Source: a virus (lineage: Duplodnaviria; Heunggongvirae; Uroviricota; Caudoviricetes). From it: DNA of 43,776 bases. The position numbers and the translations under genes are program-made. The stretch is taken from the IMG/VR virus record IMGVR_UViG_2537562190_000013. The stretch is one strand, 5' to 3'. Below the pieces are notes generated by a model. That model saw only the letters and a program-made list of their open reading frames with translations, made no database searches and was not told the origin of the DNA. Below are positions 20,848-28,717 of this stretch, one piece after another (within the stretch, counting starts at the first letter, position 1; every line of letters begins with the position of its first letter).

Positions 20848-21219
20848 TTGTGGAGAAAGTTGATGCGTGATATGTATGAAGTAATGGATCGTTGGGGAGC
20901 TTGGGCTGCTTCAGACAATAGCGGAGTGGACTGGCAGCCGATAGCGGCTGGTTTCAAGGGACTTTTACCTCATGGCAAAAAGTCACGGATTCAGTGTGAT
21001 GATGACGAAGGCATCATGATAGACAGTTGTGTGGCTCGGTTGAGAAGGTATAAACCAGAGGAATATGAGCTCATCATCGCCCACTTTGTTATCGGTATCT
21101 CATTACGCACTATTGCGAAGAAGAGAAAATGCTCTGATGGCACAATTAGGAAGGAACTGCAAACTGCAATGGGGTTTGTTGACGGCTGTTTAGCAATGTT
21201 AGCTTATAGTATGGCATAA
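20848..21219 (+). CDS. Q: Late-gene antiterminator Q (small Q family)
   Basis: MRDMYEVMDRWGAWAA...WQPIAAGFKGLL... pattern recalled from E. coli prophage Q proteins; sits upstream of the lysis cassette. Confidence 0.7.
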   Translation: MWRKLMRDMYEVMDRWGAWAASDNSGVDWQPIAAGFKGLLPHGKKSRIQCDDDEGIMIDSCVARLRRYKPEEYELIIAHFVIGISLRTIAKKRKCSDGTIRKELQTAMGFVDGCLAMLAYSMA

Positions 21220-22413
21220 AAAATAAAATAGATTTACTGCCGATTTTTCAAAAAAGACTGGGAACTGTTTATATCCAACGTAAATAAGGCCTCCATAAAA
21301 CATGGCTGATGCGAGATATTTAACAGTTCTCATCCTTTTTTTAGCTTTATCAATCAAACCTGTAATGCTACTCTTAATACTATCTGCATTATCTTTGATT
21401 TCTTTATTTTCTTCAAACTTTAAATACTTATCGAAAGCGGACTCCACTCGAGAACGTAAGTTGTCGAATGTTTCATTGAATATCTCAATAGAAATGTAAT
21501 TGACTTTTTTTATCATCCAAAGTCCTGCGATAATCAATATTGCTTCGGTTGTTTCATTAGCCTTCACTAAGCCACCAGCAGCTATTAATGCACCGGGAAT
21601 AGTCAATGCTTTTGTCTGATTAGATGATATGAATTCGTTAATTTTACTCGTGAACTCAAGATTTTTCTCATCGAGTTCGTTAAGAATTTTATTTACAGAA
21701 AACCTCTTTGTGTAAATCTCATATAGTTCATCATATTTTTTCCTGACGAGTTCAGTAGAGTTAAGCAAGTCAAAGAAATTGAACGTACCATTTGCTTTAA
21801 ATACTTCGTTTATGGCTGAGCGTATAACGAGCTTGCGCTCGCTTTTGTGTAAATCATTGATTTTTATTGTGTCGAGAAGCTCCTTTATAATTTCATATTT
21901 AAGAGACGAGTTCGATAAGCGATTAATCTCGCTATATTGTAAAAAATGCGTGAGTTCGACTGTATAACTTTTGTCTTCATTGGTGAAAAATAAGACAGAG
22001 CAGTCACTGTTATGATGATCAGCAATTAATGAAAGGATATCTTTCCACATAAAGAAAATATGGATTTTTTCGATGCTTTCATTCTTAGAAGTAGGGAGTA
22101 TTAACGGCGTTCCGATGATATAATTTTTCGGAAGAGCGTTTTGGGTGTTTACTCTAGACCAAAAAGACTCAACATTCTCATAAATTATAGCGTCATCCCA
22201 AGATGAAGCTTGGCGATCTAGCCAAATTTCATTATTTTCGATGCAGGTTGTTGCCTTTTTATAACCTATAGATTGTAACAGTCTAATTATTTCAGAACTA
22301 TTTACAATAACAATGCTTTCTTCAAGACTTATGACAGTGTAGTAGCCCTCAACTCTGCTTGAGGCTCCGTTAATAATCTGCGCTAATCTTGATAAGTCAT
22401 CAGCAATTGTCAT
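21199..22413 (-). CDS. Hypothetical protein with C-terminal hydrophobic segments; second gene of Q-lysis cassette
   Basis: 404-aa AT-rich ORF; hydrophobic stretches ALTIPGALIAAGGLV, AILIIAGLWMI, LASAMFYGGLIYVGY; 3' end overlaps the Q 3' end convergently. Confidence 0.6.
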   Translation of the reverse strand: MTIADDLSRLAQIINGASSRVEGYYTVISLEESIVIVNSSEIIRLLQSIGYKKATTCIENNEIWLDRQASSWDDAIIYENVESFWSRVNTQNALPKNYIIGTPLILPTSKNESIEKIHIFFMWKDILSLIADHHNSDCSVLFFTNEDKSYTVELTHFLQYSEINRLSNSSLKYEIIKELLDTIKINDLHKSERKLVIRSAINEVFKANGTFNFFDLLNSTELVRKKYDELYEIYTKRFSVNKILNELDEKNLEFTSKINEFISSNQTKALTIPGALIAAGGLVKANETTEAILIIAGLWMIKKVNYISIEIFNETFDNLRSRVESAFDKYLKFEENKEIKDNADSIKSSITGLIDKAKKRMRTVKYLASAMFYGGLIYVGYKQFPVFFEKSAVNLFYFLCHTIS

Positions 22414-22415
22414 TA

Positions 22416-23591
22416 TTAGCTGTCTCTATATCTTTTGAGTTCATCATAATTTGCCTGACTCAATTTTATCACAATTTCGCATTTGTTGTCAGTGAGAATT
22501 ACAGGCTTATTTGACTTTTCGTCTCCAATAGCTCCACGCATTATTTTCAACTTAAAATTATTGTCGTTATCTGCCACTTCAATTGTAAGCGCGCTTTCAG
22601 CTGCTTTAGGAGTTGGTTCAAATTGAGGGTCAATCTGGAAACCATTAAGATTAACAAAATCGACAAACGTTCCCTTACATTTGTGTGAATCAGTCAGGCA
22701 TGAGTCAATTATTTTTGAAATATCCTCTATCTTAACGGACTTATTTCCGTGTTTATCTTTTGATTTTTTTTCCAGTAAGGATTTAACTTCATTGTCAATA
22801 GTATCACGCAGTACACGACCGAGTGAGTTTTTACTAGCAAAAATATCTATAGCACTGAATAATTGCTGAATGCTTCTTTTATTGTCCGAATCATGTCGGC
22901 AACCTAATGAGTCTTTGAAAAAATCGCTTTTAGATTTACCTTGCAAGAAATGTACATATGAGTCACCCTTGTTTTCTGGATAACTGGCTTCGAATAAAGT
23001 TAAATCGAACATCGCAGCCTGCCGTAAGGCATCGGTATTAATTGGATTTAATCTTGTTGGGGTCAACTTATCCGAATCAAAGTCATAGGCGCTTTGTTTA
23101 TCAACCATTACGATTAGAAGTTTCCCCAAATCCTCTGGTTCGGTAGACTTATAGTGGATGAAAACAACGCTCCCCCCCTGAAGTTGGGCAACTCTCGATT
23201 CGTTATTAGCATTATGTTTAAGCTTCTCTATTATAGCTCTAGATAAATCAATGAATTCATTATTTTTATTAATGTATTTTTTTAGGATCGTAGGAATGGA
23301 TGAAGGGTTGTGATCTGAGTCTAGGAAGTTATGAAATTTGTTTTTTCGGCTAAATTTTTTCTCAATTCTGGTTATGAATTCAGATGTGACTTCATTTTTT
23401 AGATCCCAAACTTCACCTAATCGATAATCAAATGCTCTTGAATCATTTTTTTCAAGATTTGCTGTTACAGCACCAATAGGAAAGTACGATTGTTTGCCCA
23501 GCACTACAACATGAGGCGTGGCACCGCATTTATCGCAAGCTACAGTTGGGTCGTCAAGAACATTGCCACATTCTAAACAAGTTATATCCAT
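22416..23591 (-). CDS. Zinc-ribbon plus NdpA/YejK-like (nucleoid-associated protein family) domain protein; first gene of Q-lysis cassette
   Basis: N-terminal CLECG...CDKCG; central GGSVVFIHY ... DLTLFE ... YVHFLQGKSKSDFFKDSLG block resembling the YejK family as recalled. Confidence 0.55.
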   Translation of the reverse strand: MDITCLECGNVLDDPTVACDKCGATPHVVVLGKQSYFPIGAVTANLEKNDSRAFDYRLGEVWDLKNEVTSEFITRIEKKFSRKNKFHNFLDSDHNPSSIPTILKKYINKNNEFIDLSRAIIEKLKHNANNESRVAQLQGGSVVFIHYKSTEPEDLGKLLIVMVDKQSAYDFDSDKLTPTRLNPINTDALRQAAMFDLTLFEASYPENKGDSYVHFLQGKSKSDFFKDSLGCRHDSDNKRSIQQLFSAIDIFASKNSLGRVLRDTIDNEVKSLLEKKSKDKHGNKSVKIEDISKIIDSCLTDSHKCKGTFVDFVNLNGFQIDPQFEPTPKAAESALTIEVADNDNNFKLKIMRGAIGDEKSNKPVILTDNKCEIVIKLSQANYDELKRYRDS

Positions 23592-23882: not shown

Positions 23883-24209
23883 ATGCCTCATAACCCAAAT
23901 ACTTGGCTGGAGTTGGTCCAGAGCTGGTGGCGTGGAGACACACCGCTGGGCGCAGTGATTATGTCGATCGTTATGGCTGGCTTGCGCATTGCCTATTTTG
24001 GCGGTGGTGGTGGCTGGAAGAGAAAAACGCTCGAGATTTTGCTCTGTGGCGCTCTGACGCTGACCTTTGCATCCGCGCTTGAGTATGTCGGATGGCCTAA
24101 ATCGCTTTCTGTTGCCATTGGTGGTGGCGTTGGGTTGATCGGTGTCGATGCTATTCGTGGGGCTGCAATGAGAGTAATCGGTAACAAGTTTGGTGGCTCT
24201 AAGGAGTAA
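23883..24209 (+). CDS. Holin
   Basis: 108-aa protein with hydrophobic segments and Gly-rich region, directly upstream of endolysin; GAGGTGA ribosome-binding site. Confidence 0.7.
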   Translation: MPHNPNTWLELVQSWWRGDTPLGAVIMSIVMAGLRIAYFGGGGGWKRKTLEILLCGALTLTFASALEYVGWPKSLSVAIGGGVGLIGVDAIRGAAMRVIGNKFGGSKE

Positions 24210-24212
24210 TTT

Positions 24213-24689
24213 ATGCAGGTACTAAATTCCCAGCGTAAAGCTTTCCTGGATATGGTGGCATGGTCAGAAGGAACGGATAACGGGCGACAACCGACACGTA
24301 ACCACGGTTATGACGTTATTGTCGGTGGCGAACTCTTCACTGATTACTCCGATCACCCTCGCAAACTTGTCACGCTAAACCCGAAACTCAAATCAACAGC
24401 TGCAGGCCGTTATCAACTTCTTTCACGTTGGTGGGATGCTTACCGCAAGCAGCTTGGGCTGAAAGACTTCTCTCCCAGAAGCCAGGACTCAGTGGCATTA
24501 CAGCAGATTAAAGAGCGTGGCGCTTTACCGATGATTGACCGCGGCGATATTCGTCAGGCAATCGACCGTTGCAGCAATATCTGGGCTTCACTGCCGGGCG
24601 CTGGTTATGGTCAGTTCGAGCATAAGGCTGACAGCCTGATTGCAAAATTCAAAGAAGCGGGCGGAACGGTCAGAGAGATTGAGGTATGA
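24213..24689 (+). CDS. R: Endolysin, lambda R-type lytic transglycosylase
   Basis: Near-identical by recollection to lambda R ([20 protein letters not shown]...[23 protein letters not shown]...). Confidence 0.9.
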
Positions 24690-25123
24690 GCAGAGTCACC
24701 GCGATTATCTCCGCTCTGGTTATCTGCATCATCGTCTGCCTGTCATGGGCTGTTAATCATTACCGTGATAACGCCATGACCTACAAAGAGCAGCGCGATA
24801 AAGCCGCATCCATCATCGCTGATATGCAGAAGCGTCAACGTGATGTAGCAGAACTCGACGCCAGATACACAAAGGAGCTTGCTGATGCTAACGCGACTAT
24901 CGAAAGTCTCCGTGCTGATGTTTCTGCTGGTCGTAAGCGCCTGCAAGTCGCCGCCACCTGTGCAAAGTCAACGACCGGAGCCAGCAGCATGGGCGATGGA
25001 GAAAGCCCAAGACTTACAGCAGATGCTGAACTCAATTATTACCGTCTCAGAAGTGGAATCAACAGGATAACCGCGCAGGTTAACTACCTGCAGGAATACA
25101 TCAGGACGCAATGCCTGAAATGA
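24686..25123 (+). CDS. Rz: i-spanin Rz
   Basis: N-terminal membrane anchor then coiled-coil region; matches lambda Rz as recalled; overlaps endolysin stop. Confidence 0.85.
24879..25070 (+). CDS. Rz1: o-spanin Rz1 lipoprotein embedded in Rz (+1 frame)
   Basis: Lipobox LVVSAC followed by Pro-rich segment. Confidence 0.75.
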
Positions 25124-25158
25124 TCGGGCGATGAAAACCAAAAAAACAGGAGCAATAC

Positions 25159-25434
25159 ATGACTAAGCTTTATCACCGCATCTCAGCTTTTCTCTCTGGG
25201 TGCTGGGCGTTTATCACGTCTATTTCGTTCGTCATCTTTAGTTTCGGTAGCACAGCATGCTCGCTTAGTCGGGGTCTGTGGCGTGCTATTTCAGCACTAG
25301 CGCCGAAATTTTTACCTGAAAAGGTTGTTTGGCGAATTGTAGAGCGAATGTGTAGTGAGAGCGTTCGCGAGAAGATTAACGTATTTGGACGTCATCCTCG
25401 AAATACAGGCGCATTGTGCAGTTCGTTACTGTAG
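25159..25434 (+). CDS. Hypothetical small protein
   Basis: 91-aa ORF with AGGAG upstream; no recognised motifs. Confidence 0.35.
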   Translation: MTKLYHRISAFLSGCWAFITSISFVIFSFGSTACSLSRGLWRAISALAPKFLPEKVVWRIVERMCSESVREKINVFGRHPRNTGALCSSLL

Positions 25435-25552
25435 TCATTACAAAGCCCATCTTTGGGTTTGGTTTGTAATTTCGCTGCTGCAATAATCACCAGAAATATG
25501 GCATTGTAATTGGTGGTCATATGTCATACCCATCAATTACAAAGGAGCAGAC

Positions 25553-25804
25553 ATGTCATCTACAAAATTAGTTAAAACTATCCTTTTCCATGGAGATAAT
25601 AAATATGAAGTTTATGCAACCTCCGAGTACGCTGACGTAGATAGAATCATTCATTACAAGTTACGCTCATGTAAAAACACAGATGGTTCAGATGGCAAGT
25701 CTGAATCTATATGGGTTGTATATAATCCTGCTGTTCAATTACCGGATGATCTGAACTACAAAAAAGTTAGCAACATAGCTCCTTATCTTGAAAAGTTACA
25801 ATAA
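25553..25804 (+). CDS. Hypothetical small AT-rich moron protein
   Basis: 83-aa ORF with AAGGAG ribosome-binding site, followed by a terminator, flanked by direct repeats. Confidence 0.5.
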   Translation: MSSTKLVKTILFHGDNKYEVYATSEYADVDRIIHYKLRSCKNTDGSDGKSESIWVVYNPAVQLPDDLNYKKVSNIAPYLEKLQ

Positions 25805-25823
25805 ACTTCCTTTTCCACATGCT

Positions 25824-25850
25824 AAAAGCCTCGTATTCGCGGGGCTTTTT
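25824..25850 (+). terminator. Intrinsic terminator after moron ORF
   Basis: Stem AAAGCCUCG/CGGGGCUUU with UAUUCG loop then U-tract. Confidence 0.5.
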
Positions 25851-26016
25851 ATTGTCATTACAAAAGCCACTCCCTACAGAGTGGCTTTGATAATGGTTTA
25901 TACCCTACACGGGATAACTTAACTGATATCCCTTTTAACGGATAAACGGAGCCAACAATGGCAGAGAATGTCGGCATTATGGCAGTTAAATTTGGATAAA
26001 TCGGAGATTAGTACAT

Positions 26017-26367
26017 ATGCCGCCACGAATCCCGAAAGCCTGCCGTGCTCGAGGTTGCCGTAATACCACCACTGACCCGTCAGGCTATTGCGAAAGCCAC
26101 AAAAGCGAAGGCTGGAAGCAATACAAACCTGGACAATCCCGTCATCAGCGCGGCTACGGTTCGAAGTGGGACAGTATCCGCGCGCGTGTCCTGAAGCGTG
26201 ACAAAGGCCTGTGTCAGTTATGTCTGCGTTCTGGTGTGGTGCGTGAGGCGAAAACTGTTGACCACATCATCCCTAAAGCGCATGGCGGCACTGATGCTGA
26301 CAGTAATCTGCAGAGTCTGTGCTGGCCGTGTCATAAGGCGAAGACGGCCCGTGAACGGTTAAAGTGA
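26017..26367 (+). CDS. HNH endonuclease (terminase-associated)
   Basis: Cys-rich N-terminus; HNH motif DHIIPKAHGGTDADSNLQSLCWPCH. Confidence 0.8.
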   Translation: MPPRIPKACRARGCRNTTTDPSGYCESHKSEGWKQYKPGQSRHQRGYGSKWDSIRARVLKRDKGLCQLCLRSGVVREAKTVDHIIPKAHGGTDADSNLQSLCWPCHKAKTARERLK

Positions 26368-26492
26368 TAATAATTCTCAACTGTCTGAGGGGAGGGGCGG
26401 GTCAAATCCCTGTGACCTGACGTCTTCCGGACTGCCCGCCCCATCGTTTTTTTATACCCGCGAAAAATGAAATTTAACCAGGAGTGCCGCAT

Positions 26493-26987
26493 ATGGCTGG
26501 AACGGCGGGGCGTTCCGGGCGTCGCCCCAAGCCAACGGCGCGCAAGGCGCTGGCCGGAAACCCCGGCAAGCGAGCCCTGAATAAAGATGAACCTGTTTTT
26601 ACGCCCATCAAAGGTGTTGAGCCACCGGAGTGGTTCGCAGAAGAAAATCTCCCTCTCGCCACGATCATGTGGCAACTGACAACCAAAGAACTCTGCGGTC
26701 AGGGCCTGTTGTGCGTGACTGACCTCGCGGTGCTTGAGCGGTGGTGCGTGGCCTATGAGTTCTGGCGACGTGCCGTGAAAAATATTGCCATACAGGGCAA
26801 CACCATCACCGGTGCAATGGGCGGCAGGGTCAAAAATCCGGAGCTGACCGCCAAAAAAGAACAGGAGTCCGAGATGAGCAGCACGGGGGCAATGCTCGGA
26901 CTCGACCCCAGCAGCCGCCAGCGTCTGATTGGCCTGGCGGGGCAGAAGAAAGCCACTAACCCGTTTCTGAAAATCATCGAGTCATGA
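26493..26987 (+). CDS. Terminase small subunit (P27-like)
   Basis: N-terminal [29 protein letters not shown] pattern; GGAG ribosome-binding site; overlaps large-subunit start. Confidence 0.75.
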
Positions 26988-28717
26988 GCCGGAAATCTTA
27001 CCCCAACGTAAATGCTGCCAATCAGTATGCCCGTGATGTTGTGCGCGGAAAGATTGTGGCCTGCCAGTTTGTGATTCAGGCCTGCCAGCGCCATCTTGAT
27101 GACCTGATGGCGGAAAAAAGTAAGTCGTTTCGTTACCGCTTCGACAAGGACCTGGCTGAACGGGCCGCCAAATTTATTCAGCTGTTGCCGCACACCAAGG
27201 GTGAGTGGGCATTCAAGAGGATGCCCATCACGCTGGAGCCGTGGCAGCTATTTGTGGTCTGCTGTGCGTTTGGCTGGGTCAATAAAGGGTCCCGGCTGCG
27301 CCGCTTCCGGGAGGTGTATACCGAAATCCCCCGTAAGAACGGCAAATCGGCAATCTCTGCCGGTGTTGCCCTGTATTGTTTTGCCTGTGATAACGAGTTT
27401 GGCGCGGAAGTGTATTCCGGTGCCACGACAGAGAAACAGGCGTGGGAAGTCTTTCGCCCGGCGCGACTGATGTGTAAACGCACACCCATGCTGACGGAAG
27501 CGTTCGGGATTGAGGTTAACGCCTCAAACATTAATCGTCCGGAGGATGGCGCGCGGTTTGAACCGCTGATCGGTAACCCCGGTGATGGTTCATCACCCCA
27601 CTGTGCGGTGGTGGATGAATATCACGAGCACGCCACCGATGCGCTTTACACCACGATGCTTACCGGGATGGGGGCGCGACGTCAGCCACTGATGTGGGCC
27701 ATTACTACTGCCGGGTACAACATTGAGGGGCCGTGCTACGACAAGCGACGGGAAGTTATCGAGATGCTCAACGGGTCGGTACCCAACGATGAACTGTTCG
27801 GGATCATCTATACCGTTGACGAAGGCGATGACTGGACCGACCCGCAGGTGCTGGAAAAAGCTAACCCGAATATTGGCGTGTCGGTTTATCGCGAATTTTT
27901 GTTAAGTCAGCAGCAGCGTGCGAAAAATAACGCCCGTCTGGCAAACGTCTTTAAAACAAAACACCTCAATATCTGGGTGTCGGCGCGTTCGGCGTATTTC
28001 AACCTGGTGAGCTGGCAGAGCTGCGAGGATAAATCACTGACCCTTGAGCAGTTCGAGGGGCAGCCGTGCATTCTGGCCTTTGACCTGGCGCGTAAGCTGG
28101 ATATGAACAGCATGGCGCGACTTTATACCCGCGAGATTGACGGTAAAACGCATTACTACAGTGTGGCTCCGCGCTTCTGGGTACCGTATGACACGGTGTA
28201 CAGCGTCGAGAAAAATGAAGATCGCCGGACAGCCGAACGCTTTCAGAAATGGGTGGAAATGGGCGTTCTGACCGTTACCGATGGTGCGGAGGTGGATTAT
28301 CGCTACATCCTCGAGGAGGCCAAAGCGGCGAACAAAATCAGCCCGGTCAGTGAGTCACCCATCGACCCCTTCGGGGCGACCGGGTTGTCACATGACCTTG
28401 CTGATGAAGACCTGAATCCCGTCACTATCATTCAGAACTACACCAACATGTCCGACCCGATGAAAGAGCTGGAAGCGGCAATTGAATCGGGGCGCTTTCA
28501 TCATGATGGCAATCCCATCATGACCTGGTGTATCGGCAATGTGGTCGGCAAAACCATTCCGGGTAACGATGATGTGGTGAAACCCGTCAAAGAGCAGGCG
28601 GAAAACAAAATTGACGGTGCAGTTGCGCTGATTATGGCGGTTGGCAGAGCCATGCTGTACGAGAAAGAAGACACGCTGTCTGACCACATTGAGTCCTATG
28701 GGATCCGCTCGCTTTAA
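26984..28717 (+). CDS. Terminase large subunit
   Basis: 577-aa ORF downstream of small subunit; central [10 protein letters not shown] (Walker-B-like acidic motif); coupled ATGA overlap. Confidence 0.8.

What the first reader, a model, noticed from the sequence alone, without database searches (positions are those of the whole stretch)
25444..25868. Small AT-rich moron flanked by direct repeats downstream of the spanin genes
The sequence GTCATTACAAA(A)GCC occurs at 25444-25457 and 25854-25868, bracketing an 83-aa AT-rich ORF with a strong ribosome-binding site and its own terminator. Further short inverted repeats lie inside (ATTACAAA/TTTGTAAT; TTGTAATTG/CAATTACAA). This looks like the footprint of a small inserted cassette between the lysis and packaging modules.
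Basis: seen in the sequence. Interest (0 to 1): 0.4.

Follow-up and report, generated by a model that had tools for sequence, protein, structure and literature searches.

The report
Swappable phage gene between RNA hairpins
A small, AT-rich accessory gene of unknown function sits in a prophage between two copies of a conserved RNA hairpin that marks gene boundaries in many related phages, and relatives exist with the gene missing and only one hairpin, so it is an ordinary swappable cassette whose flanking "repeats" are the more interesting part.

Summary
The repeats, the ORF, its ribosome-binding site and its terminator are all real. The first repeat is at 25434-25447, 10 nt left of the coordinates given.

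The 83-aa ORF is a genuine but very rare gene. It occurs in 17 of 5426 E. coli genomes and has 9 hits among 1.84 billion cluster representatives. It has no assignable family or fold.

It is an indel polymorphism. One viral contig (L137) has the same left flank (part of Rz, ORF91), a single intact hairpin, then the same right flank. HK140-like phages carry other DNA in the slot. One E. coli prophage carries the same cassette (25436-25850) in a different context.

The repeats are not an insertion footprint. They are the 5' arms of a conserved hairpin family, CAUUA-CA-[variable 9-10 bp stem-loop]-GA-UAAUG. The family has many compensatory changes and U-G wobbles that fold only on the late-gene sense strand. 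It usually starts 1-14 nt after a stop codon. It has no Rfam match and is unannotated in every phage record inspected.

Homology breakpoints fall inside the hairpin and inside the terminator, and left and right flanks reassort around the hairpin.

Best reading: a moron exchanged by recombination at conserved RNA "punctuation" elements. The function of both the hairpin and the protein is inferred, not shown.

The parts
25159..25434 (+). ORF91, the left neighbour. A small basic protein (pI 10.2) with a hydrophobic N-terminus. It is the same family as HK140_069 and phrog_34701.
   Evidence: In 34 viral contigs and several annotated loci its 3' end is followed by three alternative arrangements.
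25434..25447 (+). Direct repeat copy 1, GTCATTACAAAGCC.
25433..25474 (+). Hairpin 1, a decayed or hybrid member of the hairpin family. Its 5' half is shared with HK140 and L137. Its 3' half belongs to the cassette. It now folds as a shorter, terminator-like stem.
   Evidence: Covariance model score 10.2 bits, against 63.5-65.5 bits for the orthologous hairpin in HK140 and L137. dG -11.9 kcal/mol, z -3.9. Flagged as terminator-like.
25436..25850 (+). The cassette as a transferable unit. This is the stretch shared (92.3% identity) with the E. coli cM8a prophage, where it lies between BRO-N and KilA-N genes.
25499..25507 (+). TGGCATTGT, an extended -10-like motif (TGnCAnnnT). The TG, the A at -11 and the T at -7 are invariant in five homologous cassettes that share 62-87% protein identity with the window ORF.
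   Evidence: alignment A4. The canonical promoter scan did not call it.
25542..25547 (+). Ribosome-binding site AAGGAG, 5 nt before the ATG.
25553..25804 (+). ORF83, an AT-rich accessory gene of unknown function. The predicted fold is four antiparallel strands plus a C-terminal helix.
25824..25849 (+). Intrinsic terminator AAAAGCCUCG-UAUU-CGCGGGGCUUUU followed by UAUUG. It is homologous to the element annotated as a Rho-independent terminator in epsilon34, HK75 and HK544. It marks the right-hand homology switch.
25854..25868 (+). Direct repeat copy 2, GTCATTACAAAAGCC.
25853..25898 (+). Hairpin 2, an intact type-2 member of the family: a 6-bp outer stem, a 2x2 CA/GA internal loop, a 10-bp inner stem and a 6-nt loop.
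   Evidence: Covariance model score 50.1 bits, E 2e-11, on the + strand against 15.8 bits on the - strand. dG -20.5 kcal/mol, z -6.1.
25896..25957 (+). Conserved leader with four TATCCC / GGGATAA half-sites. In other phages it precedes hkbM/DUF2560.
25958..25967 (+). The first 10 nt of an hkbM/DUF2560 gene. Homology to Sf6, HK140 and L137 ends here, and the HNH/terminase module follows.

Best explanation
The segment is a small accessory-gene cassette (a moron) in the variable slot between the spanin genes and the packaging genes of a mosaic lambdoid prophage.

The cassette consists of an extended -10-like promoter motif, a strong RBS, an 83-aa cytoplasmic protein and an intrinsic terminator. 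Relatives lack it, so it is dispensable for the phage.

The two 'direct repeats' are the 5' arms of two copies of a conserved hairpin: CAUUA / CA / variable 9-10 bp stem-loop / GA / UAAUG. This hairpin folds in the sense-strand RNA of the late operon. It normally sits 1-14 nt after the stop codon of whatever gene occupies the slot.

The cassette was brought in, and can be lost or replaced, by recombination within short conserved non-coding islands. On the left the island is the first ~23 nt of the hairpin. On the right it is the ~24-nt terminator. No element-encoded insertion mechanism is needed.

Shown here:
- the anatomy of the cassette;
- the rarity and reality of the gene;
- the empty, alternative and transposed-context alleles;
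- the position of the homology breakpoints;
- the conservation of the hairpin through compensatory changes, and its strand specificity.

Inferred:
- The hairpin is an RNA processing or stability signal in the antiterminated late transcript. I favour an RNase III-type processing site or a 3' exonuclease barrier that uncouples accessory-gene mRNA from the downstream structural mRNA (about 0.3 each).
- ORF83 is expressed from its own promoter in the lysogen and acts by binding a host or competitor-phage protein. This last point is low confidence.
For: Gene reality and rarity:
- Ten homologues at 35-87% identity keep the length and 8 invariant plus 11 nearly invariant columns.
- There are only 5 clusters among 5.8 billion proteins and 9 hits among 1.84 billion representatives, two of which are repeat artefacts.
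- The cassette DNA is in 17 of 5426 E. coli genomes.
- In divergent phages the homologues always lie after the lysis genes. Where the contig extends far enough (L009) they lie before the packaging genes.

Indel polymorphism. The 3' end of ORF91 is followed by one of three arrangements:
- the cassette, in 11 loci;
- an unrelated 'aaaccgg' spacer plus a second hairpin, in about 24 loci including HK140;
- a single intact hairpin directly joined to the leader, in L137 and L153.
In L137 the two window flanks overlap on that single hairpin.

Breakpoints:
- The window matches HK140 up to 25458 and cM8a from 25436.
- It matches cM8a up to 25850 and L002 from 25827.
- Both switches therefore lie inside shared 23-24-nt elements.

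The hairpin is a selected structure:
- In 60 distinct covariance-model hits, 98.9% of cells are paired and 9 of 14 pairs show double changes. No shuffle out of 500 reaches this.
- A sample chosen only by the downstream leader gave 155 loci with 44 distinct sequences. The 37 of these that were aligned gave 15 pairs, 7 of them with compensatory changes. The CA/GA loop is invariant in nearly all rows, and its closing pairs switch A-U to G-C.

Strand specificity:
- U-G pairs are abundant and A-C pairs almost absent.
- The + strand is more stable by a mean of 4.5 kcal/mol, in 52 of 60 and 32 of 39 cases.
- The model scores 50-65 bits on + against 12-22 bits on -.

Position: the hairpin starts 1-14 nt after a stop codon in 61 of 91 cases, downstream of at least 29 unrelated ORF clusters.

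Reassortment: four left-flank classes each occur with both main right-flank classes.

Promoter-like motif: it is conserved in five cassettes.
Against: - No expression, RNA-end or cleavage data were available, so the hairpin's function is unproven.
- The canonical promoter scan did not call a promoter in front of ORF83. The -35 region is poor.
- The left hairpin in the window is itself not significant against the model (E 2.1). Its identity rests on flank homology.
- The half-hairpin 'scars' (window, L002, epsilon34) imply illegitimate or microhomology joins, not only clean homologous exchange.
- Part of the covariation sample was retrieved with a pattern that fixed the outer stem. The sequences are related, so the counts are not independent events.
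Confidence: 0.7

Rival explanations
1. Insertion footprint. A mobile cassette inserted by transposition or site-specific integration and duplicated its target, GTCATTACAAAGCC.
For: An empty site with a single copy exists. The exact 11-mer occurs only twice in the window, in direct orientation.
Against: - The two copies belong to different hairpin subtypes and diverge immediately after 14 nt.
- Both copies exist about 40 nt apart without the cassette in 34 loci.
- In cM8a the same cassette is not followed by the repeat.
- There are no terminal inverted repeats and no transposase or integrase nearby.
- The repeat is part of a structure conserved by compensatory changes next to at least 29 unrelated genes.
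Confidence: 0.04
2. The hairpins are simply weak, possibly bidirectional, intrinsic terminators. They are conserved because they stop non-antiterminated transcription. The repeats are an incidental part of them.
For: - The inner stem is GC-rich and followed by UUGAUAAU on the + strand and UUU(U)GUAAU on the - strand.
- Rfam terminator-containing leader models align weakly to it on both strands.
- The decayed hairpin 1 is flagged as terminator-like.
- Intra-operon terminators of unknown role are noted in P22-like late operons (PMC8022706).
Against: - There is no U-run directly after the stem.
- A true terminator sits immediately upstream of hairpin 2 (25824-25849), which would make a second one redundant.
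- The outer 5-8 bp stem and the invariant CA/GA internal loop are conserved and covary. A terminator does not need these.
- The fold is strand-specific.
Confidence: 0.15
3. A DNA-level site: a palindrome or cruciform, or a single-stranded DNA hairpin, recognised by a recombinase or nuclease that moves cassettes. This would be integron attC-like or homing-like.
For: Breakpoints cluster in the element, and flanks reassort around it. GIY-YIG and HNH nuclease genes occur in or next to this slot in relatives. A G-T wobble can also form in single-stranded DNA.
Against: - U-G/G-T asymmetry means the two DNA strands cannot both fold, which argues against a cruciform.
- There is no attC-like R/L core and no integron integrase.
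- The element occurs in phages with unrelated nuclease content.
- Its position abutting stop codons, on the sense strand only, fits an RNA role.
Confidence: 0.08
4. Chance repeats around a spurious ORF.
For: An 11-14-nt repeat in AT-rich DNA is only weak evidence on its own.
Against: Covariance model E 2e-11 for hairpin 2. The hairpin has hundreds of homologous copies. The ORF is conserved down to 35% identity with preserved length.
Confidence: 0.01

Closest known systems
Morons of lambdoid phages (Juhala et al. 2000, as cited in PMC4104026; from my own knowledge, Hendrix and colleagues)
   Same: An extra gene lies between genes that are adjacent in relatives. It has atypical base composition and its own terminator and promoter-like motif. 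It sits in a slot known to hold Rha, KilA-N, GIY-YIG, Gp49 and 'anti-CRISPR'-annotated genes.
   Different: The protein family is almost orphan and of unknown function. Promoter activity is untested. The cassette is bounded by a specific conserved hairpin and terminator rather than by arbitrary joints.
PeSL (promoter-early stem-loop) cassettes of T4-type phages (Arbiol et al. 2010, PMC2839356)
   Same: Short conserved intergenic regulatory elements containing a stem-loop are repeated in a hyperplastic region of non-essential genes. Recombination between them gives insertions, deletions and replacements.
   Different: - PeSLs include a strong sigma-70 promoter, and their stem-loops are effective terminators. 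Hairpin A has no promoter and no U-tract.
- It lies in a late, antiterminated operon of temperate phages.
- At most two copies were found per locus.
- Mini-circles were not examined.
'Boundary sequences' of HK620 and Sf6 (Clark et al. 2001 and Casjens et al. 2004, from my own knowledge; the bsq7 feature in the Sf6 record)
   Same: Short conserved sequences at mosaic joints of lambdoid and P22-like phages, proposed as foci of recombination.
   Different: The only bsq feature annotated in the stretch of Sf6 that was read lies inside Rz, not at these hairpins. The hairpins are unannotated in the stretches of HK620, Sf6, HK140, HK544 and epsilon34 that were read. The hairpin is conserved as a structure, not only as a sequence.
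T7 early-mRNA RNase III processing signals (R1.1 type) and the lambda sib retroregulator (from my own knowledge; RNase III accommodates about 22 bp and can make single cleavages, PMC6212723)
   Same: An intercistronic hairpin of about two helical turns (17-18 bp plus a 2x2 internal loop). The conserved internal loop is about 10 bp below the apical loop. The hairpin lies directly 3' of a coding region in a long polycistronic phage transcript.
   Different: No cleavage data exist. The helix is slightly short. The loop is symmetric 2x2 rather than the asymmetric T7 loop. There is no sequence similarity.
REP/BIME-type 3' stabiliser hairpins and integron attC sites
   Same: Repeated imperfect palindromes at the 3' ends of genes or cassettes.
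   Different: - Unlike REP elements, it is not dispersed through the genome. The window holds one intact copy and one decayed copy.
- Unlike attC sites, it has no integrase and no R/L core.

Membership tests
Moron (lambdoid phage accessory cassette) | Lies between genes or elements that are directly adjacent in related phages | tested here: met
   In L137 and L153, ORF91 is followed by one hairpin and then the leader, with no cassette.
Moron (lambdoid phage accessory cassette) | Own transcription terminator | tested here: met
   25824-25849, dG -14.7 kcal/mol, U-tract present. It is carried with the cassette in cM8a.
Moron (lambdoid phage accessory cassette) | Own promoter | tested here: inconclusive
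   A conserved extended -10-like motif, TGnCAnnnT, is present in 5 homologous cassettes. The -35 is poor, and the consensus scan does not call a promoter there.
Moron (lambdoid phage accessory cassette) | Base composition unlike its neighbours | tested here: met
   GC 33.7% and GC3 27%, against 48.4% for the window.
Moron (lambdoid phage accessory cassette) | Expressed from the repressed prophage | not testable with these tools
   Needs RNA data from lysogens.
Transposon-type insertion with target-site duplication | Direct repeats created by the insertion and absent as a pair from uninserted sites | tested here: not met
   Both repeats are present about 40 nt apart without the cassette in 34 loci, including HK620 and epsilon34.
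Transposon-type insertion with target-site duplication | Terminal inverted repeats and/or an element-encoded transposase or integrase | tested here: not met
   The only coding sequence in 25436-25850 is the 83-aa ORF, which has no family hit.
PeSL-like mobile regulatory cassette (T4-type phages) | Repeated conserved intergenic element containing a stem-loop | tested here: met
   Covariance model hits: 91 in 100 loci and 78 in 56 loci, with one or two per locus.
PeSL-like mobile regulatory cassette (T4-type phages) | The element includes a strong sigma-70 promoter | tested here: not met
   The 42-nt hairpin element holds no promoter-like hexamers.
PeSL-like mobile regulatory cassette (T4-type phages) | Indels and replacements between related phages are bounded by the element | tested here: met
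Rho-independent terminator (for hairpin A) | GC-rich stem immediately followed by a U-run | tested here: not met
   The stem is present, but the tail is UUGAUAAUG. The consensus scan calls only 25824-25849 and the decayed hairpin 1.
RNase III processing signal (T7 R1.1 type) | Interrupted helix of about 20-22 bp with an internal loop | tested here: inconclusive
   5-8 bp, then a 2x2 loop, then 9-10 bp, giving 16-20 positions. The enzyme accommodates about 22 bp (PMC6212723).
RNase III processing signal (T7 R1.1 type) | Cleavage by RNase III in vivo or in vitro | not testable with these tools
   No RNA-end data are available.
Integron attC site | R''/L''-L'/R' cores (GTTRRRY) and an adjacent integron integrase | tested here: not met
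   There is no such core in the consensus. No integrase gene lies in the region between Rz and TerS.
Any Rfam 15 family | Match at or above the gathering score | tested here: not met
   Only sub-threshold terminator-like matches (best 22.8 bits against a gathering score of 50 across 25000-26500).

The most novel reading that the evidence does not exclude
Hairpin A (CAUUA-CA-[stem-loop]-GA-UAAUG) is an undescribed, functionally selected RNA element of the late operons of lambdoid and P22-like enterobacterial phages. All or part of the 141-nt segment that holds hairpin 2 matches in 2494 of 5426 complete E. coli genomes. On this reading the element has two roles. It is a host-factor-dependent processing or stability signal placed after accessory genes. 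It is also the recombination linker that makes the slot between lysis and packaging genes a cassette array, comparable to T4 PeSLs but built from a different part.
Probability: 0.45. Interest if true: 0.6.

Novelty: new variant of a known kind. Interest (0 to 1): 0.45.

Why it matters
The gene itself is one more moron of unknown function.

The useful result concerns the repeats. The mosaic joints in one of the most variable slots of temperate coliphage genomes coincide with a short, structure-conserved, sense-strand RNA hairpin and a conserved terminator.

This gives a concrete, testable substrate for an old question: how lambdoid mosaicism is generated. It could be short conserved functional islands, or random illegitimate joins followed by selection.

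It also points to an unannotated RNA element that may control processing of the late transcript. All or part of the 141-nt segment holding it matches in almost half of sequenced E. coli genomes.

Finally, it gives a practical rule for delimiting accessory cargo, including candidate anti-defence genes, in prophages.

Tried and rejected
- Two long 'homologues', P0011 and P0013, are tandem-repeat artefacts.
- 5'-UTR hairpin 25504-25542. It is not better than shuffles and shows an uncompensated change in most copies. Rejected as a conserved structure.
- A sigma-54 reading of TGGCAT-N5-TTGG. The -12 element is not conserved in the homologues (by eye). Rejected.
- Rfam gave nothing at the gathering score or at a convincing E-value.
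- The weak isrJ match on the minus strand is noise.
- Prophage sRNA literature (anti-sRNAs, Pas sRNAs) concerns other positions.
- A literal sequence search of the paper library found nothing relevant.
- E. coli K-12 DLP12 lacks the hairpin, so K-12 transcriptome data cannot be used.
- The genome-contig scan with the loose hairpin pattern was swamped by chance hits. Only 2 of the 120 returned loci were real, both Enterobacteriaceae. The host range outside the enterobacteria was therefore not established.

Full report
**Setting**

The window is a mosaic lambdoid prophage (Pfam for HNH). Around the finding, all on the + strand, it encodes:
- a lambda-type holin (23883-24209)
- an endolysin (24213-24689)
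- Rz/Rz1 (24686-25123, with 24879-25070 embedded)
- a 91-aa ORF (25159-25434)
- the 83-aa ORF (25553-25804)
- an HNH endonuclease (26017-26367)
- a P27-family small terminase (26484-26987)
- a large terminase (26984-28717)

**Observation**

Both repeats exist. The first is at 25434-25447, not 25444-25457, and its G is the last base of the ORF91 stop codon. The second is at 25854-25868 as stated. The exact 11-mer GTCATTACAAA occurs only at these two positions in 43.8 kb.

The other features check out as follows:
- RBS: AAGGAG at 25542-25547.
- Terminator: 25824-25849, dG -14.7 kcal/mol, z -4.5.
- Both internal inverted repeats are present.
- ORF83 has GC 33.7% and GC3 27%, against 48.4% for the window.

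**The gene is real but nearly orphan**

Homologues down to 35% identity keep the length and a conserved core, K/xLV.T.L..G..KYE.Y....V.RIIHYKLR. There are very few of them:
- 5 clusters among 5.8 billion proteins
- 9 hits among 1.84 billion representatives, two of them repeat artefacts
- no match in 50,697 phage records
- 17 of 5426 complete E. coli genomes

In the divergent carriers the gene again sits after the lysis genes. In L009, the one contig that extends far enough, it sits before the packaging genes, even though those modules are of other types (M15 or CHAP endolysins, DUF2280 terminase).

No family library names a function. A confident model (pLDDT 88.5) shows four antiparallel strands plus a C-terminal helix, with no significant structural neighbour.

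Upstream, five cassettes share an invariant A-ATGGCA---T. This reads as an extended -10 (TGnCAnnnT) with the key A-11 and T-7. The canonical scan does not call a promoter, so an independent promoter is plausible but unproven.

**It is an insertion polymorphism**

I retrieved every viral contig carrying the 3' end of ORF91. Together with the annotated loci already in hand, these gave three alleles:
- the ORF83 cassette, in 11 loci;
- an unrelated 'aaaccgg...' spacer plus a second hairpin, in about 24 loci including HK140;
- a single intact hairpin joined directly to the conserved leader and the hkbM/DUF2560 gene, in L137 and, with a variant leader, L153.

In L137, window 24718-25458 aligns to positions 1-743 and window 25854-25967 aligns to positions 719-828. 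Both window repeats therefore map onto one hairpin.

The cassette also occurs at 92% identity, as window 25436-25850, in E. coli cM8a. There it lies between BRO-N and KilA-N genes.

**What the repeats are**

Each repeat is the 5' arm of a hairpin.

Hairpin 2 (25853-25898) folds at -20.5 kcal/mol (z -6.1). Comparison with HK140, Sf6 and an E. coli prophage first showed the same architecture with different sequences.

A loose pattern retrieved more than 120 viral contigs. Most of those from enterobacterial prophages have CATTACAAAG-[variable stem-loop]-CTTGATAATG. A covariance model built from 30 copies gave these results:
- 50.1 bits (E 2e-11) for hairpin 2
- 63-65 bits for the HK140 and L137 copies
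- 10.2 bits for the window's hairpin 1
- 91 and 78 hits in the two sets of fetched loci, with one or two per locus

On 60 distinct hits, 98.9% of cells pair and 9 of 14 pairs show double substitutions. No shuffle out of 500 reaches the observed values.

That set was partly selected by a pattern that fixed the outer stem, so I drew an independent sample by the downstream leader only. All 155 loci carry a hairpin directly upstream. They fall into three sequence types, among them window hairpin 2 (type 2) and TTATTGCAGAGrCC...GGTCTCGACAATGG (type 3). RNAalifold on a plain MAFFT alignment of 37 of these sequences predicts the same fold. It gives 7 of 15 pairs with compensatory changes. The CA/GA internal loop is invariant in nearly all rows, and its closing pairs switch A-U to G-C.

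**Strand and level**

U-G pairs are frequent and A-C pairs almost absent. The + strand is more stable by 4.5 kcal/mol on average, in 52 of 60 and 32 of 39 cases. Model scores are 50-65 bits on + against 12-22 bits on -. The hairpin starts 1-14 nt after the stop codon of an ORF on the same strand in 61 of 91 cases (exactly 1 nt in 28), behind at least 29 unrelated protein clusters.

So the selected structure is on the sense strand of the late operon. That means the RNA or, less likely, that single DNA strand.

It is not in Rfam 15. It is not annotated in the stretches of HK620, Sf6, HK140, HK544, HK75 or epsilon34 that were read. In those records the feature called 'Rho-independent terminator' is the separate AGCCUCGC...GCGGGGCUUUUUU element, which corresponds to window 25824-25849. 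All or part of the 141-nt segment holding the terminator, hairpin 2 and the leader matches in 2494 of 5426 E. coli genomes, always with no annotated feature or only the start of DUF2560.

**How the cassette moves**

The homology breakpoints are informative:
- Left: the window matches HK140 and L137 up to 25458 and cM8a from 25436. The overlap is 23 nt, the hairpin's 5' half.
- Right: the window matches cM8a up to 25850 and the L002-type unit from 25827. The overlap is 24 nt, the terminator.

The window's hairpin 1 is accordingly a hybrid: a resident 5' arm joined to the cassette's own degenerate 3' arm.

Across loci, four left-flank classes each combine with both main right-flank classes around the hairpin. 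That is a four-gamete signature of recombination at the element.

Half-hairpin scars also exist. In 34 loci, GTCATTACAAA is joined to TACCAGGATTT, then the terminator, then an intact hairpin. So not all joins are clean homologous exchanges. In addition, both of the window's repeats pre-exist without the cassette. This excludes a target-site duplication.

The closest described mechanism is PeSL-mediated modular shuffling in T4-type phages (PMC2839356). The general idea of recombination at short or diverged homologies in lambdoid phages is in PMC2327257.

**Function of the hairpin (inferred)**

Four features point to recognition by a host factor acting on the late polycistronic RNA:
- a helix of 5-8 bp, a 2x2 loop and 9-10 bp, with a sequence-invariant internal loop;
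- placement right after stop codons;
- presence only in transcripts that read through the preceding terminator;
- occurrence in phages with unrelated Q, lysis and head modules.

RNase III fits the size and geometry: it accommodates about 22 bp and can make single cleavages (PMC6212723). T7 R1.1 and lambda sib are comparable cases, from my own knowledge. A plain 3' exonuclease barrier is about equally likely. A weak terminator is less likely: there is no U-run, a real terminator lies 6 nt upstream, and the outer stem and loop are conserved. None of this could be tested here.

**Verdict**

The cassette reading is right and its predicted empty site was found. The 'footprint' reading of the repeats is wrong.

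The gene is an ordinary, if very rare, moron. The flanking hairpin family is a modestly novel, well-supported structured element that deserves experimental follow-up.

Noticed in passing
window 25896-25957: Directly after hairpin 2 lies a conserved leader with four half-sites: TTATACCC, GGGATAA, ATATCCC, CGGATAA. The consensus in other phages is TTATCCCC-N4-GGGATAA-N8-10-TATCCC-N5-6-GGGATAA. The half-site sequence is conserved rather than covarying, and two alternative RNA pairings are possible (1:4 with 2:3, or 1:2 with 3:4). Whether it is a DNA operator or an RNA switch is open. In other phages it precedes hkbM/DUF2560.
   Followed up: partly
window 25958-26016: ATGGCAGAGA at 25958-25967 is the first 10 nt of an hkbM/DUF2560 gene. 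Homology to Sf6, HK140 and L137 stops at 25967. Homology to the HNH/terminase module of other prophages starts at 26017. This is a mosaic joint 10 nt into a gene, followed by 49 nt of unplaced DNA.
   Followed up: partly
window 21199-23591, minus strand: Two AT-rich antisense ORFs lie just upstream of the holin gene, on the opposite strand. This is probably the other classical moron slot, downstream of PR', though Q and PR' were not located in this window. One is 391 aa, with an N-terminal zinc-ribbon-like CxxC...CxxC and a PF04245 (NA37 nucleoid-associated) domain (E 1e-23). The other is 404 aa with no Pfam hit. Neither has a PADLOC hit.
   Followed up: partly
window 25159-25434: ORF91 is a small basic protein (pI 10.2) with a hydrophobic N-terminus, directly after Rz/Rz1. 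It is the same family as HK140_069 and phrog_34701, and its function is unknown. Another small ORF of unknown function sits directly after Rz in many lambdoid phages (for example the 153-nt gene 65 of Sf6).
   Followed up: no
L002 2075-2170; L132 (epsilon34) 1775-1825; L168 (HK620); 34 loci in all: Half-hairpin scars. The 5' arm GTCATTACAAA is joined to TACCAGGATTT, then the terminator, then an intact type-2 hairpin. Hairpins are therefore sometimes broken by illegitimate joins, and the window's two repeats pre-exist about 40 nt apart without any gene between them.
   Followed up: yes
L072 7862-7903; L027 2939-2980 and other viral loci: Hairpins of the same family also occur at other late-operon junctions. 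One follows an ORF rich in Ig-like repeats. Several lie directly in front of ORFs whose N-termini look like small-terminase subunits (judged by eye, not tested). The element is therefore not confined to the slot after the lysis genes.
   Followed up: no
window 25392-25520, minus strand: A 42-aa ORF overlapping hairpin 1 is annotated as a hypothetical protein by PGAP in some genomes (for example L006). Its 3' part lies in ORF91-derived DNA that cM8a does not share. It looks spurious.
   Followed up: no
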